Part shown: piece by piece, positions 3,013-34,053 of the stretch | Position numbering within the stretch: the stretch's first letter is position 1 | Layout of the letters: every line of letters begins with the position of its first letter | NCBI GenBank assembly: GCA_903881505.1 | Contig: CAIRTM010000011.1 | Location: 5,612 to 69,611 of the forward strand | Direction: 5' to 3' | From: an uncultured delta proteobacterium | Lineage (GTDB): Bacteria > Desulfobacterota > WTBG01 > CAIYCZ01 > CAIRTM01 | DNA: 64,000 nucleotides | Notes under the pieces: model-generated | The model's database searches: none | Seen by the model: the letters and a program-made list of their open reading frames with translations, nothing else | What the model was told of the DNA's origin: nothing | Made by a program: the position numbers and the translations under genes

Positions 3013-3046
3013 AGGCAGGGCCGTTTGGCGGCCCTGCCTTCGGTTC
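3013..3046 (-). terminator. Rho-independent terminator after the 3066..5951 gene
   Basis: Minus strand: AAGGCAGGGCCGCCAAACGGCCCTGCCTTTTTT (GC stem plus T-run). Confidence 0.6.
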
Positions 3047-3065
3047 ACGCTTGGCACAAAAAGGC

Positions 3066-10438: not shown

Positions 10439-10442
10439 CTCC

Positions 10443-10495
10443 TTGACAGTAAAAATTTATACAATACTGTATCCCGGATACTGTATACCGCACAA
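10443..10495 (-). promoter_or_regulatory. Candidate promoter and operator of the S8 peptidase gene
   Basis: On the minus strand, TGTATAAAT (extended -10 type) lies ~25 nt upstream of the ATG. The direct repeats ATACAGTAT-CCGGG-ATACAGTAT (plus-strand ATACTGTAT at 10464..10472 and 10478..10486) sit over the -35 region. Confidence 0.35.
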
Positions 10496-10736
10496 ACCAG
10501 AACCCATGGTTCATGAGGCTTCCCCACGCAATTATTGTGTCTATTCATTGCGTACCATAATCCTCGTTTTTCAAAATAGCAACAAAATTTACAATTATTA
10601 GTTGAAGAAAACCCCATAAAGTACTCCACGCCCCTTACAGGCCTTTTTCCAATGGAACCCCGTCAAAAAAACAGGTCCGCATCAACACAGGGAAGGCGGC
10701 AATCCATGCTCAGGGCGGCCTGCGCAACGTGAGATT

Positions 10737-19441: not shown

Positions 19442-20104
19442 ATGCTAAGTGAAAAGCTGGTTGAAATCATGGAAGCGATCTGGTGCGCCGCGGAGAACAG
19501 GCTCTACACCCGCGACGCCATCAGGAAAAGCTGTACGGTTTCATTCGATGAGCCTGACCTTGACACACTGCAACAGCGCGGCCTGATCACAAAAAGCGGC
19601 GATACAATTCTGTTTACTGAATCCGGCAAGGCCGAAGCAGAGAGCATTATGCGCCGCCACCGCCTGGCCGAAGTGCTGGTCACGAGCATCCTGAAACTGA
19701 AAAAAGCCGAAATGGAGGAAGTGGCCTGCCAGGTTGAGCATGCGCTGCTGCCCGAGGTCGAGGCCGCTATCTGCACGCTGCTGGGGCATCCCGAACTGTG
19801 CCCGGACGGGCGCCCGATTCCGCGCGGAGCCTGCTGCCGCAATTTGCAGAAAACCGTCAGTACCACGGTCGTGAGCCTTGCCGAGCTCGGCGCCGGGGAA
19901 AGCGGCCGTATCACCTATATCAAGCCGGAAAATCATGCGCGCCTGCACCAGCTGCTGTCCTTCGGCCTGGAACCGGGTGTTACCGTAACCGTGCTGCGCA
20001 CCACCCCGGCGCTGTGCCTGATGTTTGAAAACACCGAGCTCGCCCTTGACCGCGATATCGCCGGCAGCATTTTCGTCTGGAAGGCTGAAGGCAAAAAACT
20101 ATAG
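19442..20104 (+). CDS. DtxR-family metal-dependent transcriptional regulator fused to a C-terminal FeoA domain
   Basis: N-terminal wHTH plus a metal-binding region (RRHRLAEVLV...CQVEHALLPEVEAAICTLLGHPELCPDG). C-terminal FeoA/SH3-like segment GESGRITYIKPENHARLHQLLSFGLEPGVTVTV. Confidence 0.75.
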   Translation: MLSEKLVEIMEAIWCAAENRLYTRDAIRKSCTVSFDEPDLDTLQQRGLITKSGDTILFTESGKAEAESIMRRHRLAEVLVTSILKLKKAEMEEVACQVEHALLPEVEAAICTLLGHPELCPDGRPIPRGACCRNLQKTVSTTVVSLAELGAGESGRITYIKPENHARLHQLLSFGLEPGVTVTVLRTTPALCLMFENTELALDRDIAGSIFVWKAEGKKL

Positions 20105-20214
20105 ATCTCAGGGAACGCTTTTTTTGATGGATTAGGCCGTTTTTTTGTTTTATAAGTACCGGTATCTGACGGGTAGTACACACCGCACACGGACTCTCTG
20201 GAAAGGCATCGCAC

Positions 20215-21201
20215 ATGGCGGTACTGGTTGTCGGCGGCGCCGGCTATATCGGATCACATGCCGTGCGCGCGCTCGCGCGCGCCGGACGCCACGTGGTCGT
20301 CTTCGATAATTTCGAGAAAGGGCACCCGGAAGCCGTGCGCGGCATAAGCGTTTTCAACGGCGACCTGCGCCGCCCCGCTGATGTGGCTGAAGTTTTTACA
20401 CAGCATGCCATCGAAGCGGTCATGCACTTTGCAGCCTACAGCCTGGTCGGTGAATCCATGCAGTGTCCCGAACGCTATTATCAAAACAATGTCTGCGGCA
20501 CGCTGAATCTGGTCAGCGCCATGCAGCGCTCCGGCATCAGGCATTTCATTTTTTCATCAACAGCGGCAACCTACGGCGAGCCGGAATATGCGCCGATCGA
20601 TGAAGCCCACCCGACCCGGCCGACCAACGTCTACGGAGAGACAAAGCTCACGATCGAGCGCATGCTGGACTGGTTTGGCGCGATATACGGACTGAAAAGC
20701 GCGCGGCTGCGCTATTTCAACGCCGCGGGCGCCGACCCGGCCGCCGATATCGGAGAGCTGCACGATCCTGAAACGCACCTGATACCCCTTGTTTTGCAGG
20801 CTGCGCTCGGGGAACGGGAAAGCATCTCCGTGTACGGCACCGATTACGATACGCCCGACGGCACCTGCGTGCGCGACTACATTCACGTGAACGACCTTGC
20901 GGATGCCCACATCCGGGCCCTTGATTACCTCGAGGCCGGAAACCCCTCCGATATGTTCAACCTGGGCAACGGCAGCGGCCACAGCGTCCGCCAGATCATC
21001 GATATCGCCCGCGCGGTCACCGGCCGCGATATTAAAGTGATCAACGCCGGCCGCCGCCCCGGCGATCCTGCAACCCTGATCGCCTCCTCGGCAAAGGCCA
21101 TGCGCGTTCTGGGATGGCAGCCGAAACTGCACGACATTGAAACCATTATCCGGACCGCCTGGGCCTGGCACAGCCGGACGGCGAAAACATGGAATACCTG
21201 A
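20215..21201 (+). CDS. galE: UDP-glucose 4-epimerase
   Basis: VVGGAGYIGSH Rossmann motif, YGETK catalytic motif, 328 aa. Confidence 0.9.
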   Translation: MAVLVVGGAGYIGSHAVRALARAGRHVVVFDNFEKGHPEAVRGISVFNGDLRRPADVAEVFTQHAIEAVMHFAAYSLVGESMQCPERYYQNNVCGTLNLVSAMQRSGIRHFIFSSTAATYGEPEYAPIDEAHPTRPTNVYGETKLTIERMLDWFGAIYGLKSARLRYFNAAGADPAADIGELHDPETHLIPLVLQAALGERESISVYGTDYDTPDGTCVRDYIHVNDLADAHIRALDYLEAGNPSDMFNLGNGSGHSVRQIIDIARAVTGRDIKVINAGRRPGDPATLIASSAKAMRVLGWQPKLHDIETIIRTAWAWHSRTAKTWNT

Positions 21202-22046
21202 TGCGCGCGATCAGCAGCAGCCATATAACTGAAACCGTGGCACGGCTGTGCCGGGAGGCAAATCACGTTCTCGGCGATGACGTCCTGGGCCTGCTCAAAC
21301 AGGCACGTGCCACGGAGGTCTCCGAAACCGGCCGGGAGGTCCTCGCCCAGATCATTGAAAACGCCGCCATTGCCGCTGAAGCGCCCCTGCCCCTTTGCCA
21401 GGACTGCGGCACCGCGGTGGTGTTTGTTGATATCGGACAGAACGTACGCGTTGAAGGCGACGATATAGAAAGCGCCATACAGGCGGGGGTTGCCCGCGGC
21501 TACCGTGACGGGTACCTGCGCATGTCCATGGCGGCCCGGCCGTTCAGCGCGCGTGAAAACACCGGCAACAACACCCCGGCGGTTATCCACTACCGGATGG
21601 TGCCGGGCGAACGGCTGTCGATCACGGTTGCGCCCAAGGGCGGGGGCAGCGAAAACATGAGCCGATTTATCGTGCTCAAGCCCGCGCAGGGGCGCCCAGG
21701 TGTTGTTGATTTCGTGGTGCAGGCGGTGTCGGAGGCGGGCGCTAATCCATGCCCGCCGCTGATCGTTGGAGTCGGCATCGGCGGCACCGCGGAGCGGTGC
21801 ATGGAGATTGCCAAGCGGGCCCTGCTGCGGCCGGCCGGACAGCCCTCACCCGATCCGGAAACAGCAGAACTCGAAGCTGAACTGCTCGATCGCATCAACG
21901 CGCTCGGCATCGGGCCCCAGGGCCTGGGAGGCAGCATAACCGCACTCGCCGTACACGTTGAAACCCATCCCGCCCACATTGCCAGCCTGCCGGTTGCGGT
22001 CAATCTGCAGTGCCACAGCGCCCGGCACAAGGAAGCCGAGTTGTAG
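21189..22046 (+). CDS. Class I (Fe-S) fumarate hydratase / tartrate dehydratase alpha subunit
   Basis: The CQDCGTAVVFVDIGQ motif typical of Fe-S hydro-lyase alpha subunits. 285 aa. No beta subunit lies adjacent in the window. Confidence 0.75.
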   Translation: MEYLMRAISSSHITETVARLCREANHVLGDDVLGLLKQARATEVSETGREVLAQIIENAAIAAEAPLPLCQDCGTAVVFVDIGQNVRVEGDDIESAIQAGVARGYRDGYLRMSMAARPFSARENTGNNTPAVIHYRMVPGERLSITVAPKGGGSENMSRFIVLKPAQGRPGVVDFVVQAVSEAGANPCPPLIVGVGIGGTAERCMEIAKRALLRPAGQPSPDPETAELEAELLDRINALGIGPQGLGGSITALAVHVETHPAHIASLPVAVNLQCHSARHKEAEL

Positions 22047-22216
22047 CAGACAAACCGGTCAAATTTCTAAAAATATTTTTTTTTGCGGGCTGTTCAAAAA
22101 AGCACAGATGCAAGGCGCGCGAAGTCACGAGGAATGAGGCGTACTTTGCCGTACGCCGCAGTGACGAATGATGAGCGCAACGCAGCAGACGGGCGTTTTT
22201 CAACAGCCCGCCGCCG

Positions 22217-22411
22217 CTACCAGGAATTGGTCGCTACTCCCGCGCACATGCTGACAAAACCGACAACGGTCATCAGCCAGGCGACGCCCAGCACGGTTCC
22301 TACCGCTGTATCGGTATAGTTCCTGATACGCAGTGCCGGGGCGATCTTTGTAAGGATGGTGATGCCTGCAAGGAAAAGGATGGTGCCGTCGCGTACGAGA
22401 TGCTCAAACAT
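22217..22411 (-). CDS. Small putative membrane protein (64 aa)
   Basis: Two hydrophobic segments (ILFLAGITILTKIA, GVAWLMTVVGFVSMCAGV). No homology was recognised. Confidence 0.35.
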   Translation of the reverse strand: MFEHLVRDGTILFLAGITILTKIAPALRIRNYTDTAVGTVLGVAWLMTVVGFVSMCAGVATNSW

Positions 22412-22522
22412 GCCGTTCTCTCATGAAATGTGTTTGCAAGACCCATCCCCTGTTAGTCAGTATAGGCTTGCCGCAGGGACGTGTCAAGGAAATCAGCAGT
22501 AAATCAGCAGATACAAGGATGG

Positions 22523-23011
22523 CTATCGGACGGCCTGAAAACGGAAGCGGCAGCAGCCGTCAACCGCACAGTACATGCGCGCATGTTCAACGGTCATGTC
22601 AGGGCAAAACTCGCGTGCGAACGTGCCGTATTCACGCGAGCAGATCACATCCGATATGCGGTCGAGAAACTTCTCACGGCCGGCCTTCCTGATATGACGC
22701 ACCCAGGGGCATTCGCGAACGGCAAGCGTAAAGCCCTCAGGACTGCAGGGCGACAGTTCGAATCCGTACTGCTCGGCCTCGAGCTTGAACTCAAGCGCCC
22801 GGCACAGGGCCTCAATGCCGTCTCCTGTTTCGAGCAGGCCACGGATGGTGCGCGCCTCGATCTTCGGCAGCACCTCCCATACCGCGGCGTCGAGCGCGAG
22901 CGCCTTTTCGAAATCAGCGTCCTTTTCGACCGCCATGAACCACAGGCCGTCAACGCTCACGAAGCACTTCCTGAAATAATCGGCGACGAGTTTCTGATCC
23001 TGCATCTGCAC
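22523..23011 (-). CDS. Hypothetical Cys-containing cytosolic protein (162 aa)
   Basis: A clean ORF with normal codon usage. Cys pairs CSPEGF..CPW and CAVDGCC. No confident family assignment. Confidence 0.5.
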   Translation of the reverse strand: MQMQDQKLVADYFRKCFVSVDGLWFMAVEKDADFEKALALDAAVWEVLPKIEARTIRGLLETGDGIEALCRALEFKLEAEQYGFELSPCSPEGFTLAVRECPWVRHIRKAGREKFLDRISDVICSREYGTFAREFCPDMTVEHARMYCAVDGCCRFRFQAVR

Positions 23012-23022
23012 CCTTTCTGATG

Positions 23023-23223
23023 TTATGAAATCAGCAGCGAAAACGCGATCAGGCTGCCGAACATAATAATAAAAATAAGCTGAATGGCTTTTATGTCGTT
23101 GCGGCGCTTATTGTCATCATCATAGGTGACGTAGCTCACTATGAGCCGCGCAAGCAGATATGCCAGCACACAGCCGGCAAAAAGGATCAATTCGACAATA
23201 TACTTTTCAACAAAACAGCTCAT
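23023..23223 (-). CDS. Small membrane protein (66 aa) in low-GC DNA. Possible orphan immunity-like gene.
   Basis: Two TM-like segments, an AT-rich sequence context unlike the flanks, and a position immediately beside the IS element. Confidence 0.35.
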   Translation of the reverse strand: MSCFVEKYIVELILFAGCVLAYLLARLIVSYVTYDDDNKRRNDIKAIQLIFIIMFGSLIAFSLLIS

Positions 23224-23283
23224 GGAAAAAACAGGGGCCGTTGCCCTAGATTGCTCCTGAATCGTTATCGTTCACTTATCCAG

Positions 23284-24386
23284 ATAGGGGACGTCCATAA
23301 ATTAATAAATAATTTTCAATCTAGCAGCTTGCATTTCAATTCTGCGGCCGTCTGCTCCCCGCGACGGCAAGCAAACACTATGGCTGGCTGCGTCAAACCA
23401 TATCGCTCGGCTAATGCCGTTCCGGATACACCCAGCTCATGCACTGCCCAGTATATGGCAAGACTGCGGGCTTCCACACGGCGCCGATCCCGCCCCTTCT
23501 TCCTTACTTCTTCTGCCGGCAGTCCCATTACTTCCGCTACCCGCCGTTCAATCTTATCAATGTCATAGCCCCGGCGCTTTAATTCATATCCCCGGCGGCA
23601 TGTCTCCTCTGCACGCGATAGCACCTGTTCAACAAAATCACTGTCTCCCAGTATCCGCACATCGCTCTTTACACGGTCCTGGCCTTGCAAGCGGATTTTT
23701 TTGACAGCATCCCAGCCGCCCATGCTCCGAATCAATCCGCCGCCAACCAGCTCCGGCCGCCTGCCATGTTCAATCCCCTGAGCAATAAACTGTGAATACT
23801 GTTTCCGCGCCATTTGTACCTTTTTGCCGAACATGTTGACCACATAGCCTGTCTGCTGCCAGGTGTAAGCTTTCTCTCCTATCAGGGCGCTGTGCCCAGC
23901 GTATGCGTACTTGTCCAGCTGCTTCATTGTTCTTACAATACCGGCCCTTAACGGATTTAAATGAATATAGCGGACCAGTTCCTTCAGATAGATATCCTCC
24001 TGGCATATAATTGATTTATACCGATTCTGAAACAGCTGACCGTGACGGTTATACTTACGATTGAAATATCCGGAATACCCAGTCAAAAGCCTCCTCATAA
24101 GCGTTGCCAGACCCACATCGCCAGTACGCAAAAGTAAATGCGCATGGTTGTCCATCAGTGCCCATGCATAGCAGCTCGTGTTGCTGGCCACAAGAAACTG
24201 CCCCAGCCGCTGAATAAACCACTCCTTATCCGCTGAAGTGCGAAAAATCTTTTTGCGCTCAATCCCCCGGAAGATAACGTGATGCACTACACCGGGTGCG
24301 TCCAGTCGGGCTACTCGTGGCATGCAAACACTTCTATCAAAGCACATCCCTTCCGTCAATTTATTAATTTATGGACGTCCCCTATA
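23284..24386 (-). mobile_element. IS200/IS605-like insertion element bounded by perfect 26-bp terminal inverted repeats
   Basis: ATAGGGGACGTCCATAAATTAATAA at 23284..23309, and its reverse complement at 24361..24386, flank the transposase gene. Confidence 0.75.
23316..24323 (-). CDS. IS200-like Y1 (HuH) transposase fused to a DnaA domain-IV-like C-terminal HTH
   Basis: ORF track (23316..24359, TTG start). The likely start is MPRVARLDAPGVVHHVIFRG. HuH motif MDNHAHLL and catalytic Tyr region FQNRYKS. The C-terminal RSLAIYWAVHELGVSGTALAERYGLTQPAIVFACRRGEQ resembles the DnaA C-terminal DNA-binding domain. Confidence 0.8.
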   Translation of the reverse strand: MPRVARLDAPGVVHHVIFRGIERKKIFRTSADKEWFIQRLGQFLVASNTSCYAWALMDNHAHLLLRTGDVGLATLMRRLLTGYSGYFNRKYNRHGQLFQNRYKSIICQEDIYLKELVRYIHLNPLRAGIVRTMKQLDKYAYAGHSALIGEKAYTWQQTGYVVNMFGKKVQMARKQYSQFIAQGIEHGRRPELVGGGLIRSMGGWDAVKKIRLQGQDRVKSDVRILGDSDFVEQVLSRAEETCRRGYELKRRGYDIDKIERRVAEVMGLPAEEVRKKGRDRRRVEARSLAIYWAVHELGVSGTALAERYGLTQPAIVFACRRGEQTAAELKCKLLD

Positions 24387-24536
24387 TTCTCCCCGGTTTC
24401 CTTGGCAAGAGTTCCCATACGACTAATAAAGTTCCTTCGGTCTTCTTCATCCCGGACTATCAGGCCCTTTTCTATACCTCTGATAATCACGTGATGCAAG
24501 GTTCCCGGCGCATCCAGCCTTGGCCCTCGTGGCATT
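24387..24536 (-). pseudogene. Truncated N-terminal fragment (~49 aa) of an older copy of the same transposase, interrupted by the intact element
   Basis: Manual translation MPRGPRLDAPGTLHHVIIRGIEKGLIVRDEEDRRNFISRMGTLAKETGE, then the reading frame runs into the right IR. A degenerate IR-like AACGTCCCCTAT sits at ~24607. Confidence 0.55.
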
Positions 24537-24661
24537 GACTCTTCCTTCCCTGTGCCTGTCGGTTTGATCCCTGCAGCATACTAACGTTTGTGTACTTTGT
24601 TAACAACGTCCCCTATCATGCACACTCTATCTTTTCCCTCAACCGATTCGGCGCAAAATCT

Positions 24662-25015
24662 TTATTTCTTTAAAAATGAGATTAAAAAAAGACTGGCTGA
24701 ACCTAATAGAACAATTCCCAAAATTGCAGCCGGAATCATATAATACAAAGCACCCGCCATTTCATCCAAATTTTGATTAATCATATAAGCAGCTATGCAT
24801 ATTAGTTCAAAAAAAACCAAGTGCCCCACAGAATGAATGGTGAATTTTGTATTAAAACAAAGAGGCATTGCAATCGAATATAAAATAGCCAACACTGAAA
24901 ACAGAATGAAAAAAAGCATGAGATGCCCATCTTTGCCTCTTGTAACGGCGTAAGATGCGATGACCAATAAGGTGCCAAACCAGTATAAATTGAAAATCTT
25001 CAATAGTGATTTCAC
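24662..25015 (-). CDS. Putative immunity protein of the Rhs toxin (117 aa, polytopic membrane protein)
   Basis: Its start overlaps the Rhs stop. Low-GC codon usage matches the toxin C-terminal domain. Four hydrophobic helices. Confidence 0.6.
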   Translation of the reverse strand: MKSLLKIFNLYWFGTLLVIASYAVTRGKDGHLMLFFILFSVLAILYSIAMPLCFNTKFTIHSVGHLVFFELICIAAYMINQNLDEMAGALYYMIPAAILGIVLLGSASLFLISFLKK

Positions 25016-28000
25016 CAGATACTCCCCATTGCTTTAATTTGGTTAATCGCAGGATTTTTTGAAACAATTATATCTGGAGCTGGTGCAAGATCAGGCCCAT
25101 GAATATTTGTAAAGAAGTCTGCTGAAAGCATATAATCCGAATGATTATATTCATCAAAAGGCTTATCATGTGGCAATATATATTTGCCCATGGTTTCATC
25201 TGGAGCAAATTTTCTATTCGTTATCCAACCAAGTTCCTGAATTTTTGCGATCTCATCTCCTTTTGCACCAATTCCGCCTTTAAACCATGCCCATTCATCA
25301 TTGGGGGACCAGTAATTATACGTTTTTCCCCGAATCTGAGATAGAGCCTTTAATAAATCATTCGTTTCTGAATTGAACGGGAGTACATCCAGAGGACTTC
25401 CCATCATGATAAAAGTATCCACCTTTGATCCACCTTGTAGAGCAGCAAGGCTAATTATTGTACCTTGACTGTGGGCAATAATACTAATAGGTTCACAACT
25501 TTTTTCTTTTTCCTTTATGCTATTCAAGAGATTTAAAATTCTTTTTAACCTATCAACACTAACCATCATGTATTTTCTGTTCGAATCTCGCATGCCCGCA
25601 ACGCTATCTGTTGCATAATTAGGCTGTCCACCTTGTTTTCTTGACAAGCCGAACGAAGTAGATGGATCCCCCCATTTAAAAGGAATTATTTCCTGAATAT
25701 TCTGCCCAGTAGAATTCCAATAGGCCTTCAAACCCTTTTCCGCAGTACTAAACCATGCAGCATCGGTATTTACACCATGAACCAATACAACGACATCACC
25801 TAAAGGATCGATGCAATCATTGGTATTATTAAAAACAAAATTATATAGATTGACACCCCCTGCTTCCCCCATCGGGTCTCTATTCAACCACCGTCCAAGT
25901 ACCGGGCTGTAATATCTGTAGCCATAATAATAGAGCCCCGTCTCAGCTTCGAGGTACTTTGTGGAAAAACGGTACGGGTTAGCTTCTGCCAACAAGCCAT
26001 TAGAATTGATGGTATTCCCGAAGGGATCGTATTCGTAGTGTGCGGCGATAATGCCATCAGTGTCTACAAGCTGGCCGACGTTGCCGTTGGCGTCGCAGGT
26101 GTAGTAGTGTGCGTTGTCGCTGATACGGGTAAGCAATCCGCCGATGCCGCCTGCGCCCTGGAGGGTGCCGGAGAGGTCGAGGCCCCAGACGTACAAAACA
26201 GAAGTCTGAAGTCCAGGGTTCGAGGTCGGAATAGAAACTTCACAGATAAGATTCCAGCCGTCGTAGAGGAAGCGGGTGTCGGAAGCAGCAGACCAGGAAT
26301 CGGCGTTGTAGTCAAACACCTGCTTTTGCACGCGGCGGCTCATGTAGTCGTAGGTGAAGGCGACCTTGCGGGTTCCGGGAGCAGGGGTTTGCGGTTCGAC
26401 AGAGATAAGGCGGTTTTCGGCATCGTAGGTTAAGGCGGTGCGCACGGCGCCCGCTACACTACCTGCGACCAGATTGCCGTCTTCGTCGTAGTGCAGGTCA
26501 TCAGTAACCGGCGCGCCCGCGTTCGTGGTGATCTGTGTGTATTGATTGAGCGGATTCGGGTCGTAGGTGATCTGCTTCGTCAATGCTTCGATTGCCGATT
26601 CGCGATTGCCGATATTGTCGTAGGCGAAGGTGCGGGCTTCGGCGTTGACCGGGGTGGTGGTGTCGCCTGTGTCGGTTCCGATGTAGCTCTGCGATCCAGT
26701 CAATTCACTGCGTGAGTTGTAGCCGTAGAGGTTGAAGGCGGCCCGGTCAAAGGCTGCGCCGGAGTTTTTAACGCTGGTCCTGCGGCCCATGCTGTCGTAG
26801 GCGTATGCATAATTTGAAATAATTTGCGCATTGTATGCGTTTTCAATGTTTGTTCGTACATTCCTGTTAGGTTCATAGCTGTAGGTTGTTATCAGACCTC
26901 TGTCGGTCGTGGTGCTCTGCAGCAGATGTGAATTCGGCACGTATGAATACACAGCATTGCCGGACAGGCTGTCGCCAGTCCAGCCTACATTGATAAATCT
27001 GCCGGTGGGGTCGTAGGCGTAGGTGATGTCATACCCAGCACCAAGAGAAAAACCGGAAGAACGGCCTAACCCGTCGTAGTCTCGAGTGATGGTTTCATTC
27101 ATAAGCCCGGTCATGGTTTCTGTTTCAAGCTGCAGGGCGCTGTTATAGGCAAATGTTCTGCTGCCGGCTGCATCACTCACGGTCTTCTGCCTGCCGAGAC
27201 GGTCATAAGAGAACTGCACATCGGGCGTGGCATCGGAATAATCAATTGCCGCAAGCTCTCCGGTTGCGGGATCATAATTATAGCTGGTGACAATCGTTCC
27301 GCCTTCGCGCGCCCAGGTGCGGCTTGCAAGCCTGCCGCCTGATGCGTAGGTATAGGCAACCTGCTTGCCTTCAGCATCCTGCTTTGCCTTGAGCAGCCCG
27401 GTTGCCTCATCATAGATCCACAGGGTTTCATCGCCTGATGCCCCTGCGGGGAACGTTTCGCCGTCAAAGCCTGCGCCTTCGCGGTAAGTGAGCATACGCG
27501 CAAGCCTACCGTAACCGTCATACTCATAGCTCACCGGATAAGTGGCGCTGCCCCACTGACGGGTGATCTGGCCCTGATTGTTGTAGCTGTAGCGCACGGT
27601 TGTGTTGTCAGGATTGGTCTCGGATATCTTCTCGCCGGTCGCCGAATTATAGTTGTACAGCGTGCGGTTACCGGCTGCATCCTGCACCCAGGCGACCCGG
27701 CCATGCGAGGTGTAACCTGTTGTGCTTCTGCCCGTGCGTGGATCGGTCAGGCCTACCCTTCTGCCAAGATCGTCATAGGCATAGGTCAACGTCACTCCGC
27801 TTTTGCCCGTGCTTGACATGAGCAAACCGTTCACGCTGAATGACACCGCATCGATGGTGCTGTCAGGATAATCAACCGTGGCGGTTTCAGTGCCCGCAGC
27901 CCGGTTGATTACGCTCCTTGATACCACCCGGTTGCCGAGCGTGTCAATTGAAACATTCTCGCTCACGAGCCCGCCCGAGCCAAGCCCGGTAAAGCGGCTT

Positions 28001-31000
28001 AACTGCGTTGCCACTGTTGTGGGTGTAGCGCTGTTCTCGGTTGCAAAAACCTTTTGCTCTGCTTTTTGCCACCAGGCATCATCAGCGGACACATACACCG
28101 AAGTGGATGCGGTGATGCGGTCGCCCGATGCAGGCGCAAGCACATTATTGCCATCCACATCAAGCCCGCTCATAACCTGATTGCCGATTTCATCGTATAC
28201 ATACAGGGTGGCAGCCATGCCGGTTGCAGTGGTTTTTACAAGCTGGCCCTTGTTGTTGTAGAAATTCTCAGCTGCTTCCACGGTTCCGCCAAAGCCCGGT
28301 TTTTCAACCCGCACTGTGCGGCCGAGCATGTCGGTCACGGTTTTCTCCCACACCGGGCCGCTCAAATCTTTGGTGTACACGGTGGTGCAGCGCGTGCCGT
28401 CCGGGTTCACGCCGTATTCATAGAAGCGCGCAATGGTACCCGTGCCGCTTACCGACTTGACCTGGCCGTCAAGAAAGCGCTCCGTGATTTCGGTCGCACC
28501 TCCGGGACGGGTGACTGTTGACACGCGCCCGCCAGCAGCATAGCTGTACTTCGTCACCAGGCCGTCAGCTGCCGTGCTGCTCGTGAGCCTCCCTGCCTTG
28601 TCGTAGGCACTCTCTGTTGCAAGGCTCAGGTCTCCCGCGCTTACCGTACTCGTCAAGCGCCTGCCTGATCCATCGTAGGTATAGGCGGTGGTGACCTGGC
28701 CGTGCGCGCCCGGGCGCCTCATGTGCGTTACGCGCTTCATAAAATCATACTCATAGCCCGTCACAATACCGCGCGCATCCGTCTCATCAGTCATGCCGCA
28801 GCAGTCCCAGTTAGCGCTGGTCTCGGTGCCGTCGGAGTTTACCACCCGGATGACATGGCCCTCGTGGTCGTAGGTATTCACCGTCCAGCTCACGCTCTCA
28901 TAGCCGGAACCGGTATACACGAGCGTTTCCTGCATCATGGTGCGGCCAAGCCCGCTTGCGATGGTGTTTTCGCGGATCGTCGTGCCGGCTATGCCCTCAG
29001 GGCTGGTGACGGTTCCGCGGGTCAGCGTGTTCTGCAGGTCACTGCCTGAACCTTCAGCGAAAGTGCCCTTCGATCCGTCGTCCGGCCGGCTGTAGGCGCC
29101 GCGCACATAGCTGTAGCTGTCAAGACGGCCGTCAGAATAGGCAACGCTTCTGAGCCTGCCGGAGTTCACCGTGCCGGTGCCTTTACTGTAATACGTGCGC
29201 GTTGTGCGCTGATTGCCGGAAGCGCCGAAGGATGCGCCGGGACTGGCGGCCTGCTCGACAGTCTCGATCCGGTTGCCGTGCGCATCACGTACATAAGAAT
29301 ACCAGGCCTTCGCAACCACGGTGCCCAGTATCGTCTCTGTTATTGTGCGCGGACGATGGCTGTCTTCGGGCAGGCCGGAGTCCTGCGGATCGATCGGGGT
29401 GTAATCGTAATGCCTGGCGCGCGCTGCACCGGCGCCGGCGCCCGCTGCGGAATCAAGCCATGAGCTTACCTCAACGCTTGTGCGGCCCTGAGCGTCGTAG
29501 CTGTACGTCGTGGCCGAACCGTCGGGCTGCGTCCGGCCGAGCACCCTCCCGGTAGCCGGATCGTACTGCGTGCGGGTGGTGAGGCGGGCAGCATCCGGAT
29601 CAATTGTTTGCTCCACCACGGCCCGGCCCCATGCATACGTGCGGTACAGCGTGCTGGTTTTGGAAGCAACCCGGCCTGAGCGGTCTTTTTCCGTGCGCAC
29701 CTCGGCACGCTCATCGCTGCCAATGTCCGTGGTCTGGACCTCTACCACCTGGTCGCTGTCGCCCTTGATGAGCGTCCAGACATTGGAGCCTTCCGGCTTC
29801 CGGTATTCGTAGCGCTTTGCCGCGTCGCCGCGGTTTTCCGTGATCAGCAGGCTTTCGCACACGTCCTTTGATGCGCTCTGGTTGCGGACAGTCCACTGCG
29901 CGATCGGGCTATATCCGAAGTTGACCTCATAGATACCCTCGTCGTTTTTCTCGCCCCTGGCCGAAGGCGGGTAAAACAGCACCTGGTAGGAATAGTCGTC
30001 AACGGGCAGGATATCCACGAAGGCCTCGGGCGCAACAATTTGGCGCAGCACGTCGCGGCCGTAGAGCTTGTACACATCGTAGATTTCGGAAGAGAACTCC
30101 CCTGACGGCGCATACACGGCCTCAAGGCCTTGTGCCAGGGACTCAAGGCCCAAAGCCGCCTCGGTGTGATCGCCGACGGCATCCGGGCTTTTGGGCTTCG
30201 CTGCATCGGGGCGGAGCCTGTCAGACTGAATGAACAGCGACCCGGCGCTCATGCCGCCCGCGGCCTTGCCCAGACTGATTTTGAAATCAATGCCCTGGTT
30301 CAGGTCGATATTCTTCAGCGCACACGCCGGGCAGCCGGATTTTTGCGCGCAGGATTCGCACCCCACGGCAATGCTGCGGGTGATTTCGCAGGCCGGGCTT
30401 TTAACATCCTTTACGTTCAGCACAATAAACCCGCCGCCGCCCTCAAGCCGGGTGCTCTCATCTATGGACAGCCAGCAGCTGGTTCCCTCCTGGGCTATGA
30501 TGCTGCCCAGAATGCCGGGGCTGGTCCTCTCGTTATCGATCTGCCACTCAAGCTCCATGCCCTCGTAGGGCTCCTCGGCGCGCACTTCAACCGTTGATCC
30601 CGGCATCAGCGGATAGGCGCTTTGGTCGTCCTGTGCGTCAATATAGACGTTCTTCAGCCTGCACGGGGCTGCGATGAAGGTGCCCGTGGTGCGCACCTCG
30701 CGGCCCTCGGGAGATGTGATCAAGAGCGTTATGGGGATTTCATCGCCCGGCACAAGGTTTTTCTCATTTTTCATGCGGAAGGTAAAATACCCCTCGCCAA
30801 GGGTGCCGGCCGTGGGCACGGGGTCGCCCACAAGCTCGAAGTCCGGGTGGGTCGAGCTGATCGCGGGCGTTTTGCCGCTCACCCCGAACCCGTTCAGATT
30901 GATCAGCGCGTACTTGACCGTGCGCTCGCCCTTGTCGATCGATGGAAAGTAGCGGTTTTCCCAGTTGTACTTCCCGTTTTCATAGTCGATATAGAGTATC

Positions 31001-34000
31001 CAGGTATTGTTCATGAACTCGTTCAGGCTGTCACGGGCCTGGTACATGGCGCCGATCTGACCCATGGCTCCCGCCAGGGTGAACCCGATACCGCCCATAC
31101 CCATTGACTGAATCCGGGCCAGCTGCAGCGCCATGACATTCTGCGCTATGCCGCGGATCAATGTATTGACGGGAACATTGCCGTCGCGGATCGAATCTGA
31201 ATTGGTTATGAGGGCTGCTGCAGCGTCGGCAAGCACGCCTGCAACCTGCAGCCAGTCGCTGTATTGAGGATCGACAAAATCCCGGTTCCACTTGGCGATC
31301 TCTTCGACAATCTGGCCGCCGCCGATGACGTACGGATCGGCGCCCTTGAGGCTGATGAAATAGCCCATGCGAAAGGGCCCCATGGGATTGCCCGGCGGCG
31401 TTGTCGATATGATGCCCACGCCGGTGAAGGTGCCGACATCAATGCGCTGGGAGGGCACAAGCACGTTCTGCCCATAGTCCGTGAGCTCGCGGCTGACGAT
31501 TTCAAGGTCTTCGGGCTCAAGCTGCAAAGGGGACAGATCAAAGCTTCCCATGTCCTGCGTGAACTGATACAGCGGCACATTTCTACCCACGGCCTCGGCC
31601 ACAAGCTTCACCGCCGAGACGGACTCCTGCCGGAAGAGCTGCTGCAGCACCAGGTGCTCGAACACCGAGCCCTGCATGCCCTCGGTGCGCAGGAAGGCAT
31701 CTCTCAGCTGCCAGTCGGCATCCTGCGGCACTGTCTGGACCCGCTCGGAGACATCGACACGGATATTGGTCTCGGTGACGCGCACGGGCCATACGTCGAA
31801 CAGGTAGGACACCTTCAGGTGCCGTGCAATGCGTATATCGGAAGGGTTGCGGTACCAGCGCACGCCCAGCTGCCGGGCGATCAGGTCGGCATGCGTGTCG
31901 AGCTGGTAAAAATAGGAGCTGCCGGTGATGTGCAGCTGCTCGCCCAGCAGCCGGTCCAGCTCGCTTGTGCGCTCGCCCAAGGCTTCGTTAAAACGCGCGA
32001 GCGCCGCGGTGATGTTTTCAGAACTGGCGCGGCCCAGGCCCAGCACAATCGCGGTGTGGTCGCCGACCGTGGTGACGTAATCGCTTGTGCGGGACGGGTT
32101 CTTGACGTCCTCGCCCGGCCGTACGATTGCTACGCGCAGGGTCTCCTCGAGTCCCATGGATATCTCGGCGTCCTTGCCCGTGTTCTCCGCCACCAGACGG
32201 CCGTTCAGGCGCAGCTGCGGACGCATGTAGATCATGTACAGGGGCGTTTCCAGAAATGTGCCCGTGTATTCGGCCAGGGTTTCGTAGTCTGCGCTCGTCG
32301 AGGGCACGTAGGACAGCACCAGGCGCTGGCCCGCCACCTGTGAGGTGGGCGCGCGAAAGTCGATTTCAAGAGTTTCAAGCTCGATGTCCAGGTCAACGCC
32401 CCAGTAGGAAAGCTGCACACTCACCTGATGGTGCTCTTCAAGGGGCACGGAGCTGTAGGTCCGGTACTGCGACTGGTCGGTCTCAAAGGGCAGCGTTATC
32501 GGCAGGATCGGGAATGTCTCCTTCGCCACCTCGTCATAGCCGTAAAAATCACGCAGCGTCATGTCCGGATGGTCATCGAGAAAGTCCTGCAGCCTTGCCT
32601 GGTAGTCTGCCGTGGATGCTGTCATGAACTCCTGGAACGATTCGGTATCGATATCAACCAGGCCGCTGTCGGCGATGTTGCTGAACTGATCGAGGCTCTG
32701 GATGAACTGCTCTGCATCGAAACCAAGGCCCTGTTCATTGACCGCCCCCGCAGTGCTGCGGTACTGCTTGAAGGCCGGGGCAAGGGGCACCCACAGCTTG
32801 TGCCTCTCGCTCTCAGCGGTGCCGCGGTAGTCGGCATAGGGAAGGTAGACCTCGACACAGGTGTGCAGGAATGAAGACTGCGCGATCGTTGAGCCGCGGT
32901 AGAGGTCCTCGACATCTTTGATGTCGCCGGTCGCCAGGTAATAGCCCACCATCGCCGGCGACTTCAATCCAAGCCACTGCATTGCGCGGTTGATGTCTAC
33001 GATTGCGCGGACCTCGGCGTAGCGGGCCGGATAGCCTGAATAGCGCAAAAGTGCTATCAGCAGCGAGGCGGTATCAACATCGTTGCCGCAGCCCTCGGCG
33101 AGCGTCTGCGCGGCCCCTTTGAGGCTGCCCCGGTAGGGCTGAAAGTCGATAGTGTTCTTGACCCACTCGTATATCCGTATGGGGTTTTTGCCAAGACTGT
33201 CGGCAAGCGCCTTGATGGGCGCGGCAAATACCACATCCCCCAGCTCATCCTCGAGCAGATCGGCGGCAGCCGGAGGCGCAACTGCGGCAATCGTCGCCCG
33301 GCTGAGAAGGCCCTGAACCGAAGAAACAGAGGCAACATGAATCGGCCGCGCGCGCCGGGGCAGATCCAGGTCCCAGGCCGCAACAGGGGAAAGCAGCGGC
33401 TGTGAAGGCTGCCCGGCGGACAGGGAGTCTTTGGAATTGAATTTCACCATTTTGAAGACGCCGTTTTCTGCCAGCAGGCCGAAGCCGGGGCGGGGCATGT
33501 TGAGCTCGCCTGTCTCGGCCGCAGTCAGTTCACGGCCCTTGGGCCTTACAATCTCTGAGGAGGTTTTGCTTTTGCGGGCGTTGCGGCCTAGTGCGGAAGA
33601 ACGCTCCATGGCCTCGATACGCTTCTTGCGGCCGCCCAGCAGGCCCCGCTCGATCATACCGTTAATGTCGCCGCGCCTGGTGCAGTCTGACAGGGCTGCA
33701 AAGCGTTTCTTCAGGGCGGCTGCCTGCGCCCGGTGGCGCTCAACAAAAACATCATCGGCTCCGTTCTCAAGGAGCTCCTGCTCCATCAGCGCAAGCAACC
33801 TGTCGAGCTCGCCGGTGCGGCCGGCAAAGCGCTCTGCGCTTTTCAAAAACGCTGCCAGGGCTTTTTCAGTGCGGCGTGACTGCATATCTTCAAATTTCCG
33901 GTCGAGCTGCTGCATGTGGCTCGACATCTCACTCCCCAGCTGCTCGAAACGCTCATACGTGCCGGGGTTGAACAAACTCTGGGCACCCGGCGCCGGAACA

Positions 34001-34053
34001 AAAAACAGACAACCTGCAAGAAGGGCACCTGTAAGCAGAGACAGCTTTTTCAT
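25012..34053 (-). CDS. Rhs/YD-repeat polymorphic toxin (3013 aa). Signal peptide, transglutaminase-like core, long YD-repeat shell, RHS core, and a C-terminal alpha/beta-hydrolase (lipase/PGAP1-like, Tle-like) toxin domain.
   Basis: N-terminal MKKLSLLTGALLAGCLFFVPAPGA. Transglutaminase-like core GCGNDVDTASLLIALLRYSGYPARY. Dozens of YDxxGR YD repeats. RHS core ending YRYYSPVLGRWLNRDPMGE...DPLGD. C-terminus VVVLVHG...IIAHSQGT (GxSxG nucleophile elbow). GC content falls over the last ~900 bp. Confidence 0.9.
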   Translation of the reverse strand: MKKLSLLTGALLAGCLFFVPAPGAQSLFNPGTYERFEQLGSEMSSHMQQLDRKFEDMQSRRTEKALAAFLKSAERFAGRTGELDRLLALMEQELLENGADDVFVERHRAQAAALKKRFAALSDCTRRGDINGMIERGLLGGRKKRIEAMERSSALGRNARKSKTSSEIVRPKGRELTAAETGELNMPRPGFGLLAENGVFKMVKFNSKDSLSAGQPSQPLLSPVAAWDLDLPRRARPIHVASVSSVQGLLSRATIAAVAPPAAADLLEDELGDVVFAAPIKALADSLGKNPIRIYEWVKNTIDFQPYRGSLKGAAQTLAEGCGNDVDTASLLIALLRYSGYPARYAEVRAIVDINRAMQWLGLKSPAMVGYYLATGDIKDVEDLYRGSTIAQSSFLHTCVEVYLPYADYRGTAESERHKLWVPLAPAFKQYRSTAGAVNEQGLGFDAEQFIQSLDQFSNIADSGLVDIDTESFQEFMTASTADYQARLQDFLDDHPDMTLRDFYGYDEVAKETFPILPITLPFETDQSQYRTYSSVPLEEHHQVSVQLSYWGVDLDIELETLEIDFRAPTSQVAGQRLVLSYVPSTSADYETLAEYTGTFLETPLYMIYMRPQLRLNGRLVAENTGKDAEISMGLEETLRVAIVRPGEDVKNPSRTSDYVTTVGDHTAIVLGLGRASSENITAALARFNEALGERTSELDRLLGEQLHITGSSYFYQLDTHADLIARQLGVRWYRNPSDIRIARHLKVSYLFDVWPVRVTETNIRVDVSERVQTVPQDADWQLRDAFLRTEGMQGSVFEHLVLQQLFRQESVSAVKLVAEAVGRNVPLYQFTQDMGSFDLSPLQLEPEDLEIVSRELTDYGQNVLVPSQRIDVGTFTGVGIISTTPPGNPMGPFRMGYFISLKGADPYVIGGGQIVEEIAKWNRDFVDPQYSDWLQVAGVLADAAAALITNSDSIRDGNVPVNTLIRGIAQNVMALQLARIQSMGMGGIGFTLAGAMGQIGAMYQARDSLNEFMNNTWILYIDYENGKYNWENRYFPSIDKGERTVKYALINLNGFGVSGKTPAISSTHPDFELVGDPVPTAGTLGEGYFTFRMKNEKNLVPGDEIPITLLITSPEGREVRTTGTFIAAPCRLKNVYIDAQDDQSAYPLMPGSTVEVRAEEPYEGMELEWQIDNERTSPGILGSIIAQEGTSCWLSIDESTRLEGGGGFIVLNVKDVKSPACEITRSIAVGCESCAQKSGCPACALKNIDLNQGIDFKISLGKAAGGMSAGSLFIQSDRLRPDAAKPKSPDAVGDHTEAALGLESLAQGLEAVYAPSGEFSSEIYDVYKLYGRDVLRQIVAPEAFVDILPVDDYSYQVLFYPPSARGEKNDEGIYEVNFGYSPIAQWTVRNQSASKDVCESLLITENRGDAAKRYEYRKPEGSNVWTLIKGDSDQVVEVQTTDIGSDERAEVRTEKDRSGRVASKTSTLYRTYAWGRAVVEQTIDPDAARLTTRTQYDPATGRVLGRTQPDGSATTYSYDAQGRTSVEVSSWLDSAAGAGAGAARARHYDYTPIDPQDSGLPEDSHRPRTITETILGTVVAKAWYSYVRDAHGNRIETVEQAASPGASFGASGNQRTTRTYYSKGTGTVNSGRLRSVAYSDGRLDSYSYVRGAYSRPDDGSKGTFAEGSGSDLQNTLTRGTVTSPEGIAGTTIRENTIASGLGRTMMQETLVYTGSGYESVSWTVNTYDHEGHVIRVVNSDGTETSANWDCCGMTDETDARGIVTGYEYDFMKRVTHMRRPGAHGQVTTAYTYDGSGRRLTSTVSAGDLSLATESAYDKAGRLTSSTAADGLVTKYSYAAGGRVSTVTRPGGATEITERFLDGQVKSVSGTGTIARFYEYGVNPDGTRCTTVYTKDLSGPVWEKTVTDMLGRTVRVEKPGFGGTVEAAENFYNNKGQLVKTTATGMAATLYVYDEIGNQVMSGLDVDGNNVLAPASGDRITASTSVYVSADDAWWQKAEQKVFATENSATPTTVATQLSRFTGLGSGGLVSENVSIDTLGNRVVSRSVINRAAGTETATVDYPDSTIDAVSFSVNGLLMSSTGKSGVTLTYAYDDLGRRVGLTDPRTGRSTTGYTSHGRVAWVQDAAGNRTLYNYNSATGEKISETNPDNTTVRYSYNNQGQITRQWGSATYPVSYEYDGYGRLARMLTYREGAGFDGETFPAGASGDETLWIYDEATGLLKAKQDAEGKQVAYTYASGGRLASRTWAREGGTIVTSYNYDPATGELAAIDYSDATPDVQFSYDRLGRQKTVSDAAGSRTFAYNSALQLETETMTGLMNETITRDYDGLGRSSGFSLGAGYDITYAYDPTGRFINVGWTGDSLSGNAVYSYVPNSHLLQSTTTDRGLITTYSYEPNRNVRTNIENAYNAQIISNYAYAYDSMGRRTSVKNSGAAFDRAAFNLYGYNSRSELTGSQSYIGTDTGDTTTPVNAEARTFAYDNIGNRESAIEALTKQITYDPNPLNQYTQITTNAGAPVTDDLHYDEDGNLVAGSVAGAVRTALTYDAENRLISVEPQTPAPGTRKVAFTYDYMSRRVQKQVFDYNADSWSAASDTRFLYDGWNLICEVSIPTSNPGLQTSVLYVWGLDLSGTLQGAGGIGGLLTRISDNAHYYTCDANGNVGQLVDTDGIIAAHYEYDPFGNTINSNGLLAEANPYRFSTKYLEAETGLYYYGYRYYSPVLGRWLNRDPMGEAGGVNLYNFVFNNTNDCIDPLGDVVVLVHGVNTDAAWFSTAEKGLKAYWNSTGQNIQEIIPFKWGDPSTSFGLSRKQGGQPNYATDSVAGMRDSNRKYMMVSVDRLKRILNLLNSIKEKEKSCEPISIIAHSQGTIISLAALQGGSKVDTFIMMGSPLDVLPFNSETNDLLKALSQIRGKTYNYWSPNDEWAWFKGGIGAKGDEIAKIQELGWITNRKFAPDETMGKYILPHDKPFDEYNHSDYMLSADFFTNIHGPDLAPAPDIIVSKNPAINQIKAMGSIW

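What the first reader, a model, noticed from the sequence alone, without database searches (positions are those of the whole stretch)
23284..24620. IS200-like element encoding a Y1 transposase fused to a DnaA-type HTH, inserted into an older copy of itself
Perfect 26-bp inverted repeats at 23284..23309 and 24361..24386 bound a gene whose N-terminal half is a HuH/Y1 transposase (MDNHAHLL, FQNRYKS). Its C-terminal segment resembles DnaA domain IV. Directly beyond the right IR, a 49-aa N-terminal fragment of a paralogous transposase continues at ~24387..24536 (MPRGPRLDAPGTLHHVIIRG...), with a degenerate IR-like AACGTCCCCTAT at ~24607. This is a nested self-targeted insertion. IS200/IS605 elements normally lack terminal IRs, and the fusion to a replication-initiator DNA-binding domain is itself notable.
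Basis: seen in the sequence. Interest (0 to 1): 0.6.

Follow-up and report, generated by a model that had tools for sequence, protein, structure and literature searches.

The report
TIR-flanked tyrosine transposase beside older remnants
This is an intact copy of an already described but never experimentally studied kind of bacterial mobile gene (a RAYT-like tyrosine transposase with a DnaA-type DNA-binding tail and terminal inverted repeats), sitting among the broken ends of older relatives; it is a fairly ordinary find.

Summary
The sequence features are real. A perfect 27-bp inverted repeat (23284-23310 / 24359-24385) bounds a 335-aa gene with a Y1/HUH nuclease domain and a DnaA-domain-IV-like HTH. 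A 225-nt 5' remnant of a paralogue follows at 24393-24617. The kind is known: it is a "TIRtron" encoding a TIRYT (Di Nocera 2013), which corresponds to TnpA-Y1 subclass 2.1.2 (Quentin 2018) and RAYT group 1 (Bertels 2017). That literature already describes both the terminal repeats and the DnaA-like C-terminus. It is RAYT-like rather than IS200-like: its best structural match is E. coli TnpA-REP. The remnant is not an older copy "of itself". It belongs to a second lineage (59% aa identity) with its own 28-nt TIR. Simple nesting fails because the rest of the old gene is absent on the far side. A syntenic relative (L114/L132) shows that the old copy was there first, and that a third TIR already lay at the other junction. 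So the intact element replaced a segment inside a cluster of TIRtron debris. Same-orientation stacks of 5' ends recur in relatives, including Chlorobium phaeobacteroides. TIR doublets, solo TIRs and stuttered termini are common in metagenomes. Verdict: a new member of a known kind, of modest interest.

The parts
23284..23310 (.). TIR on the 3' side of the gene (ATAGGGGACGTCCATAAATTAATAAAT), with the conserved core GGGGACGT
   Evidence: It is a perfect 27-nt inverted repeat with 24359-24385 and 0 matches are expected by chance. The same TIR is present in relatives L016, L017 and L074.
23316..24323 (-). TIRYT gene, 335 aa plus stop. The Y1/HUH domain spans about aa 1-150 (23874-24323), with HUH HAH at 24138-24146 and the class-2 Tyr motif YIHLNP at 23952-23969. 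The conserved GRRPELVGGGL motif is at 23733-23765. The DnaA-domain-IV-like HTH spans aa 255-330 (23334-23561).
24324..24358 (-). 5' UTR of the gene. A -35-like TTGACG at 24354-24359 directly abuts the TIR. Relatives carry TTGACA-N17-TAnnnT at the same place.
   Evidence: Sequence and comparison of 5' ends. The window's own -10 is weak and was not called by the consensus scan.
24359..24385 (.). TIR on the 5' side of the gene
24386..24392 (-). Purine leader GGAGAAT outside the perfect TIR (GGGGAGAATATA|GGGG). It is absent from the uninterrupted old gene in L114, so it is not old-gene sequence and presumably arrived with the intact element or formed at the junction. Similar GGGAGnAAAATA boxes flank relatives L017, L074 and L077.
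24393..24617 (-). 5' remnant of a second TIRtron lineage. Its own TIR is (GATA)GGGGACGTTGTTAACAAAGTACACAAAC at 24586-24617. It has a promoter-like TTAACA-N17-TATGCT (24603-24575), a UTR, the ATG at 24535 and about 48 codons. It is called as a 59-aa fusion ORF (24356-24535) that reads into the inner TIR.
   Evidence: It is 95.6% identical to L114 2919-3143. The TIR is shared with L114 and with both ends of L115. No partner TIR exists in the window.
23270..23279 (-). ATAAGTGAAC, the probable remnant of the AT-rich half of a third TIR. The syntenic relative L132 still has this TIR intact (ATAGGGGACGCCCTTAAATAAGTAAAC) at the equivalent position upstream of the 66-aa ORF.
   Evidence: Confidence is moderate: it is a 9/10 match at an equivalent distance from a conserved terminator-like block.

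Best explanation
The locus is a complete "TIRtron". It is a unit of about 1.1 kb (23284 to about 24392) made of one gene for a TIR-associated tyrosine transposase (TIRYT; RAYT group 1 / TnpA-Y1 subclass 2.1.2), its own promoter region, and two 27-bp terminal inverted repeats with the family core GGGGACGT.

It lies in a small cluster of TIRtron debris between an RHS toxin/immunity cassette and housekeeping genes. On one side it abuts a 225-nt 5' end (TIR, promoter, about 48 codons) of a second, older TIRtron lineage. On the other side it abuts a 10-nt vestige of a third TIR. The intact element arrived after these. It now occupies the place of the segment that once joined them, through insertion plus deletion or a one-step replacement.

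Inferred mechanism (not shown), by homology with IS608 TnpA and E. coli TnpA-REP. The HUH/Tyr119 domain would cut and rejoin single-stranded DNA at or just outside the GGGG cores through a 5'-phosphotyrosine link. Single TIRs do not fold on their own. The substrate would therefore be the long stem that the two TIRs form with each other when the strand is single-stranded at a replication fork, as in the short TIR doublets. The DnaA-IV-like HTH would supply sequence-specific binding to the TIR.
For: Identity of the element:
- Domain hits.
- At least 8000 homologues, mostly 335 aa with the same two Pfam domains, several named RayT.
- Fold matches: 4er8 (RAYT-REP complex) at E 4e-6 and DnaA domain IV 1j1v at TM 0.72.
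- PDB profile hits only to DnaA domain IV.
- Literature definition of TIRYT/TIRtron and subclass 2.1.2.

The TIR belongs to the family:
- The identical or near-identical TIR flanks proteins 58-81% identical in unrelated contexts.
- 18 full copies measure 1089-1097 nt (two L016 pairings that span its duplicated ends give 1189-1190).

Mobility (indirect):
- Seven copies 95-100% identical, with unrelated flanks, occur in one metagenome.
- Internally deleted copies, 50-90-bp doublets and solo TIRs exist.

Order of events:
- L114 carries the same old 5' end (95.6% identity) after the orthologous RHS gene. There it continues to codon 69 and reads ACCGG|CACGTCAG where the window has ACCGG|GGAGAATATAGGGG.
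- L132 is syntenic with the other flank and has an intact third TIR where the window keeps only ATAAGTGAAC.

The junction is real: L131 is 99.97% identical over 3157 nt, and the fusion ORF occurs on at least 4 contigs.

Hairpin logic: single TIRs fold with z -0.3 to -0.7, doublets with z -3.7 to -7.7.
Against: - No TIRYT has ever been shown to transpose. Cleavage sites, strand polarity and the role of the HTH are inferred only.
- The window holds one intact copy, so mobility in this genome is unproven. The source genome was not in the genome collection.
- The TIR core GGGGACGT matches the published GGGGWSAS motif at only 6 of 8 positions.
- Bac_DnaA_C scores below Pfam's cutoff, and REP_Tyr_transpos scores below NCBIfam's cutoff.
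- Model confidence is low for residues 190-240.
- The orthology of the 10-nt vestige rests on a short match.
- L114 and L132 are two contigs of one metagenome sample. They were assumed, not shown, to come from one organism.
Confidence: 0.72

Rival explanations
1. First reader's model. An IS200/IS605-type insertion sequence made a simple, self-targeted nested insertion into an older copy of itself.
For: The Y1_Tnp domain is present. The fragment is truly homologous and shares the 11-nt terminus ATAGGGGACGT. The old copy predates the intact one.
Against: There is no remainder of the old gene beyond 23283. The old copy is a different lineage with a different TIR. The ends have no subterminal hairpins. 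The protein is closer to RAYT than to IS200/IS608 TnpA. The far junction lies at a third TIR, not in the old gene.
Confidence: 0.08
2. 5'-end stacking. The fragments are the newer parts, not the older ones. A directional copying process would start at the 5' TIR, like a rolling circle. When it aborts, it would leave TIR + UTR + N-terminal pieces, which are joined exactly at the outer boundary of a resident TIR. This would build same-orientation stacks upstream of a full copy.
For: Stacks in one orientation with variable truncation points (UTR, then codons 10, 13, 46, 49, 62, 69, 105) and precise downstream TIR starts occur in the window, L016, L028, L114 and Chlorobium phaeobacteroides L125. 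All 5 heterotypic junctions are co-oriented. Junction-spanning tandem stutters of 8-94 nt occur at TIR boundaries. GGGAC/GGGGA lies within 40 nt outside 22 of 92 ends, against 7 of 84 controls.
Against: The window and L114 share the same old fragment but with different lengths (48 against 69 codons). That is simpler to explain as one ancestral copy truncated twice than as two independent additions. Nested insertion followed by deletion between co-oriented TIR cores also predicts co-orientation and a missing remainder. The TIR-based search biases detection toward end-containing fragments. One junction in L125 lacks a TIR altogether.
Confidence: 0.12
3. A domesticated, immobile RAYT-like host gene. 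The flanking repeats would be operator or regulatory sites, and the neighbouring fragment would be ordinary pseudogene decay after a local duplication.
For: RAYT-class genes are typically low-copy, and intragenomic copies are divergent. P0090 sits at one fixed locus across 10 sample assemblies. The window has a single intact copy.
Against: The same TIRs with 58-81% identical proteins sit in unrelated contexts. Seven near-identical copies have unrelated flanks in one sample. Gene-less doublets and internally deleted copies exist. Many homologues lie on 1.1-1.4 kb contigs, typical of collapsed repeats. Group 1 is the most IS-like RAYT group. The fragment has a different TIR, so it is not a local duplicate.
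Confidence: 0.06
4. A metagenome assembly artefact that joins two different elements at a shared repeat.
For: The window is probably from a MAG. Other assemblies break near this locus.
Against: An independent assembly (L131) reproduces 21856-25012 at 99.97% identity without gaps. The 59-aa junction-spanning ORF is on at least 4 contigs. The junction at 24392/24393 is not inside the shared 11-nt motif.
Confidence: 0.02

Closest known systems
TIRtron / TIRYT (Di Nocera, De Gregorio & Rocco 2013, PMC3733652). This corresponds to TnpA-Y1 subclass 2.1.2 (Quentin, Siguier, Chandler & Fichant 2018, PMC6006769) and RAYT group 1 (Bertels et al. 2017, PMC5581495).
   Same: It is a RAYT-like Y1/HUH protein longer than RAYTs. 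It has a C-terminal Bac_DnaA_C-type HTH and the class-2 Y---NP motif. The gene is flanked by terminal inverted repeats with a GGGG-led core rather than by REPs. Copy number is low, with divergent paralogues in one genome. Related TIRs occur as solo copies, dimers and clusters.
   Different: The core is GGGGACGT rather than GGGGWSAS (6 of 8 positions). I found no description, in the papers read, of the features seen here: same-orientation stacks of 5' ends, stuttered termini, a promoter abutting the 5' TIR, or replacement of a resident copy.
REPtron: RAYT (TnpA-REP) flanked by REP/BIME sequences, E. coli structure 4er8
   Same: It is the best structural match for the nuclease domain (E 4e-6). 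The gene sits between inverted copies of a short repeat. The short repeat doublets fold as hairpins like REPINs.
   Different: A single TIR is not a palindrome and does not fold (z about -0.5). There is no GTAG tag. The protein scores 62.7 bits against a cutoff of 80 for NCBIfam REP_Tyr_transpos. It carries an extra 180-aa C-terminal half with an HTH.
IS200/IS605 family (IS608, ISDra2 TnpA)
   Same: It has the Y1/HUH fold and the Pfam Y1_Tnp domain, and no target-site duplication is seen at full copies.
   Different: IS200/IS605 elements have no TIRs, have subterminal imperfect hairpins at each end, and encode a transposase of about 130-155 aa. Here the ends are long TIRs without hairpins and the protein is 335 aa with an HTH.
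DnaA domain IV (1j1v, 3pvp, 2z4r)
   Same: The whole domain aligns, at profile positions 254-327. TM is 0.72, rmsd 2.0 A and identity 26%.
   Different: The DnaA-box-reading signature (DHTTV in E. coli) is replaced by SQPGV/TQPAI. There is no AAA+ module. The DNA target is unknown.

Membership tests
TIRYT / TIRtron | RAYT-like Y1 protein with an HUH motif and a class-2 tyrosine motif (Y---NP) | tested here: met
   HAH is at aa 60-62 and YIHLNP at aa 119-124, invariant in 42 homologues.
TIRYT / TIRtron | Gene flanked by terminal inverted repeats instead of REP palindromes | tested here: met
   A 27-nt perfect IR lies 5 nt after the stop codon and 35 nt before the ATG. The same arrangement is seen in 18 related full copies.
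TIRYT / TIRtron | TIR carries the motif GGGGWSAS (found in the majority of TIRtrons, not all) | tested here: inconclusive
   The TIR has GGGGACGT, matching 6 of 8 positions, with the last two differing. The B-type neighbour in L028 has GGGGACAG, a full match.
TnpA-Y1 subclass 2.1.2 / RAYT group 1 | C-terminal extension of Bac_DnaA_C, HTH_23 or HTH_28 type | tested here: met
   Pfam gives 8.3e-06, below cutoff. The PDB profile search hits only DnaA domain IV. The fold match to 1j1v has TM 0.72.
TnpA-Y1 subclass 2.1.2 / RAYT group 1 | Phylogenetic placement within the subclass | not tested
   The reference sequences of Quentin 2018 and Bertels 2017 were not available to the tools. The assignment rests on architecture and TIR type.
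IS200/IS605 | Subterminal imperfect hairpins at each end and no terminal inverted repeats | tested here: not met
   Long perfect TIRs are present. Each end folded alone as ssDNA gives z -0.31 and -0.69.
IS200/IS605 | Insertion 3' of a fixed tetra- or pentanucleotide that abuts the left end | tested here: inconclusive
   The bases outside GGGG are sublineage-specific (ATA, CAAT, TAATG), and a purine box is frequent at -8 to -6. Whether this is target or element sequence could not be settled. No empty/filled site pair was available.
RAYT / REPtron | Flanking GTAG-tagged REP palindromes, and a protein above the NCBIfam REP_Tyr_transpos cutoff | tested here: not met
   The score is 62.7 bits against a cutoff of 80. 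There is no GTAG tag and no single-repeat hairpin.
Active insertion sequence (any family) | Several near-identical copies in different places of one genome | not testable with these tools
   The source genome is absent from genome contigs, and only one intact copy lies in the 64-kb window. There is indirect support for a sister sublineage, which has seven contexts in one metagenome.

The most novel reading that the evidence does not exclude
TIRtrons do not land at random. Their ends, or the 5' region next to them, would be preferred substrates for further TIRtron events. This would build co-oriented stacks of 5'-end fragments and stuttered termini. Those natural products would record the polarity and cut sites of a still uncharacterised single-strand (possibly nick-primed, 5'-end-first) transposition pathway. 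In that pathway a DnaA-type HTH would replace hairpin recognition.
Probability: 0.15. Interest if true: 0.6.

Novelty: new member of a known kind. Interest (0 to 1): 0.3.

Why it matters
For annotation, loci like this should be called TIRYT/TIRtron (RAYT group 1), not IS200, and the adjacent 59-aa ORF is a fusion artefact of a remnant. More broadly, no TIRYT has been studied experimentally. The family is very large: at least 8000 clusters were scored in one search. The natural rearrangements collected here give concrete, testable predictions about where the enzyme cuts and what it recognises. These rearrangements include a replaced resident copy with a syntenic "before" state, co-oriented 5' stacks, junction-spanning stutters and hairpin-forming doublets. 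The window's own locus is only one more example.

Tried and rejected
1. Mapping all copies in the source genome. The genome-contig scan found only relatives of about 30% identity, so the source is not a species representative there. Exact-protein look-ups gave the same locus in other assemblies, not other copies.

2. P0090's "13 contigs" turned out to be one locus seen in many samples, not many copies.

3. DnaA-box idea. TTATCCAGA, one mismatch from TTATCCACA, overlaps the 3' TIR boundary at 23276-23284. Nothing comparable was noticed when reading the flanks of related copies (no systematic search), so I treat it as coincidence.

4. Target-site duplication. None was seen at 18 full copies, nor around the composite in the window.

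5. "3' terminus truncated because it lacks the purine box". This is weakened because the closest relative, L016, also lacks the box at its 3' end.

6. The search with the 49-aa fragment returned only proteins of 47-86 aa. This may reflect candidate selection by the tool and truncation at contig ends. P0131 is a frameshifted copy, not a fragment family. I did not build on it.

7. An Rfam scan of 20000-28000 found nothing.

8. The promoter scan did not call the intact gene's promoter. The promoter statement rests on conservation of TTGACA-N17-TAnnnT in relatives.

9. A literature search for work on TIRYTs after 2018 found none in the library.
Full report
**Observation**

A 27-nt perfect inverted repeat has arms at 23284-23310 and 24359-24385. 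It occurs only at these two places in the 64-kb window, against 0.00 matches expected from shuffles. Between the arms, on the minus strand, lies one ORF. The ORF list starts it at a TTG (347 aa), but the homologues are almost all 335 aa, so the real start is the ATG at 24323.

Pfam finds Y1_Tnp (1.1e-10) and Bac_DnaA_C (8.3e-06, below the curated cutoff). NCBIfam's best hit is REP_Tyr_transpos at 62.7 bits against a cutoff of 80. Beyond the right arm, a 59-aa ORF begins with a 41-residue stretch that is 59% identical to the start of the intact protein (E 1e-14). It is preceded by ACGTCCCCTATC at 24606-24617, which pairs with 23283-23294.

**Domains**

A 42-sequence family alignment, used as a profile against all PDB sequences, hits only DnaA domain IV: 2z4r at 1.7e-3, 1l8q/2hcb at 3.5e-3 and 1j1v at 0.12. 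The match covers profile positions 254-327.

The AlphaFold model has mean pLDDT 79, with low confidence at residues 190-240. Its best match is the E. coli RAYT-REP hairpin complex 4er8 (E 4.4e-6, TM 0.65 on the target). The ISDra2 and IS608 transposases follow at about 1e-3. DnaA domain IV also matches: 1j1v with TM 0.72, rmsd 2.0 A, 82 columns and 26% identity, and 3pvp. Both domain calls therefore hold.

One correction concerns the tyrosine motif. The class-2 signature is Y---NP (Quentin 2018). Here it is YIHLNP at aa 119-124, and it is invariant in the alignment.

**What is already known**

Di Nocera et al. 2013 (PMC3733652) described RAYT-like genes flanked by terminal inverted repeats. 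They named the units TIRtrons and the proteins TIRYTs. Many of the TIRs share GGGGWSAS, and TIRs also occur alone, in dimers and in clusters. Quentin et al. 2018 (PMC6006769) place 20 of those 26 proteins in TnpA-Y1 subclass 2.1. Its subgroup 2.1.2 carries Bac_DnaA_C, HTH_23 or HTH_28 C-termini, and subclass 2.1 corresponds to Bertels' RAYT group 1. Bertels et al. 2017 found group 1 to be the most IS-like of the RAYT groups.

No experimental work on it was found.

**The TIR belongs to the family**

- Proteins 58-81% identical to the window's carry the same or nearly the same TIR in unrelated contexts (L016, L017, L018).
- An exact-pattern scan of metagenomes with GGGGACGTYCATMAATWAATAA returned 86 contigs.
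- 18 full copies measure 1089-1097 nt from GGGG to CCCC and show no target-site duplication (two L016 pairings spanning its duplicated ends give 1189-1190).
- The 5' TIR is followed directly by TTGACA-N17-TAnnnT in most relatives. The window has TTGACG.
- Of 85 unique TIR ends, 17 adjoin a full gene and 13 adjoin a gene that runs to the contig end. A further 13 adjoin only gene fragments, 12 are 50-90-bp TIR doublets, 23 are solo, and 7 could not be classified.
- Single TIRs do not fold as ssDNA (z -0.3 to -0.7), whereas doublets fold strongly (z -3.7 to -7.7).
- Seven copies of one sublineage in a single sample are 95-100% identical, with unrelated flanks.

**The fragment is a different lineage**

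Beyond the shared ATAGGGGACGT, the two 5' ends diverge. The outer sequence GGGGACGTTGTTAACAAAGTACACAAAC (24586-24613) is a genuine TIR. It recurs in L114 and at both ends of a frameshifted copy with an HTH_23-type C-terminus in L115. It has no partner in the window.

**History of the locus**

Nothing left of 23284 resembles a transposase, so simple nesting fails. Two contigs from JGI sample 3300005077 are syntenic with the two sides of the window.

L114 has the orthologous RHS gene (76.6% identity over 1662 nt), a different toxin/immunity tail, and then the same old 5' end (95.6% over 225 nt). There the old gene continues to codon 69. It reads ACCGG|CACGTCAG where the window reads ACCGG|GGAGAATATAGGGG. 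After codon 69 it is cut by yet another co-oriented 5' end.

L132 matches the window's other flank: the 66-aa ORF at 88.5%, DUF6125 at 85.6%, and fumarase onward at 80.9%. Upstream of the 66-aa ORF it carries a solo TIR, ATAGGGGACGCCCTTAAATAAGTAAAC. The window retains only ATAAGTGAAC (23270-23279) next to the intact element's 3' TIR.

The simplest reading is that the old copy and a third TIR were already present, and the intact element now occupies the segment between them. That could have come about by insertion followed by deletion, or by one replacement event.

The arrangement is not an assembly error. L131 reproduces 21856-25012 at 99.97% identity, and the junction-spanning ORF is on at least 4 contigs.

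**A recurrent pattern**

Co-oriented stacks of the form [TIR + UTR + N-terminal codons][next TIR ...] occur in several relatives:
- L016, where both ends are doubled with periods of 93 and 94 nt;
- L028, with three layers from two lineages;
- L114;
- the complete genome of Chlorobium phaeobacteroides DSM 266 (L125).

Many ends also carry junction-spanning tandem stutters. L020 differs from L018 in this way, and L028, L034, L080, L096 and L110 show them too. GGGAC/GGGGA lies within 40 nt outside 22 of 92 ends, against 7 of 84 controls.

Two models fit. One is nested insertion followed by deletion between co-oriented TIR cores. The other is a directional, 5'-end-first copying process that aborts and rejoins at TIR boundaries. 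The second remains open, and I give it as the novel reading.

**Mechanism**

The mechanism is inferred, not shown. By homology with IS608 TnpA and TnpA-REP, the HUH/Tyr119 domain should cleave and rejoin ssDNA. Because single TIRs lack hairpins, the likely substrate is the stem formed by the two TIRs, or by a doublet, in single-stranded DNA. The DnaA-IV-like HTH is the obvious candidate for TIR recognition. Its DnaA-box-reading residues are not conserved (alignment), so its DNA target is unknown.

**Verdict**

The element is a new member of a known kind, and interest is modest (0.3).

Noticed in passing
L018 vs L020 (2420-2445 and 3528-3560); also L028 40-70, L034, L080, L088 1080-1150, L096 199-260, L110 5134-5200: The termini are "stuttered". 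Short tandem duplications of 8-21 nt span the flank/TIR junction, for example ggaggttGGGGACG repeated twice in L020 but not in the otherwise identical L018, and (CAATGGGGAC)n in L034 and L080. Together with single G-core-like motifs, GGGAC/GGGGA lies within 40 nt outside 22 of 92 ends against 7 of 84 controls.
   Followed up: partly
L016 2347-2465 and 3514-3633: The closest relative (81% aa identity, identical TIR) has both ends doubled with almost the same period (93 and 94 nt). Each unit includes the TIR plus adjacent gene sequence. On the 3' side it also includes 10 nt of flank (TAGTGTGCAC), which itself repeats a third time. This is either symmetric tandem end duplication or insertion into a 190-bp deletion derivative.
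   Followed up: partly
L125 (Chlorobium phaeobacteroides DSM 266, CP000492.1 2546195-2552407), locus 2500-3230 and 5190-5365: A finished isolate genome holds a co-oriented stack of three TIRYT 5' pieces, with 105 codons, 46 codons and a partial UTR, among IS110 and IS3 elements. Another 31-codon 5' fragment lies 2 kb away. One junction has no TIR.
   Followed up: partly
L054 1542-1625, 2141-2220, 3325-3400; L105; L029; L032/L079; L044/L057/L066/L078; L069: Gene-less TIR doublets of 50-90 bp fold as strong ssDNA hairpins and resemble REPINs or MITEs. Three copies lie within 3.4 kb in L054. All four copies of that type share asymmetric extra bases beyond the TIR (CCAAK on the left, TGTTGTC on the right).
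   Followed up: partly
window 24650-25850 and 25012-34053; L114 1-2903; L017 1660-2454: The element cluster sits directly after an RHS protein whose C-terminus is a Tle3-like phospholipase, followed by a 117-aa putative immunity ORF. This stretch is 34-39% GC against 55-65% nearby. The syntenic L114 has a different toxin tail (Tle1-like) and immunity gene, with homology resuming exactly at the old TIR. L017 also has an RHS fragment next to its TIRtron.
   Followed up: partly
L133/L134 4840-5920: In a more distant relative (DUF6125 79% identical), a different 260-aa class-2 Y1 gene occupies the intergenic space upstream of DUF6125. Its TIR is TTGGGGTCGGACCACGA, and a 62-nt tandem duplication lies at its 5' end. 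This may be a recurrent landing zone.
   Followed up: no
window 23276-23284: TTATCCAGA, one mismatch from the DnaA box TTATCCACA, overlaps the outer edge of the 3' TIR. No such motif was noticed at the ends of related copies (flanks read by eye, not searched), so it is probably chance.
   Followed up: partly
(proteins P0121-P0240): A database search with the 49-aa fragment returned 215 hits, and the 120 listed are all 47-86 aa long, with none full-length. This may be a bias of the search tool together with contig ends, or it may mean that N-terminal TIRYT stubs are very abundant.
   Followed up: partly
L113 557-942: Two N-terminal fragments of about 60 codons from different TIRYT paralogues face each other (convergent), with no TIR between them.
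   Followed up: no
window 34765-43422 and 6910-10629: Further very large ORFs (2885 aa and 1239 aa) lie upstream of the RHS gene. They were not examined.
   Followed up: no
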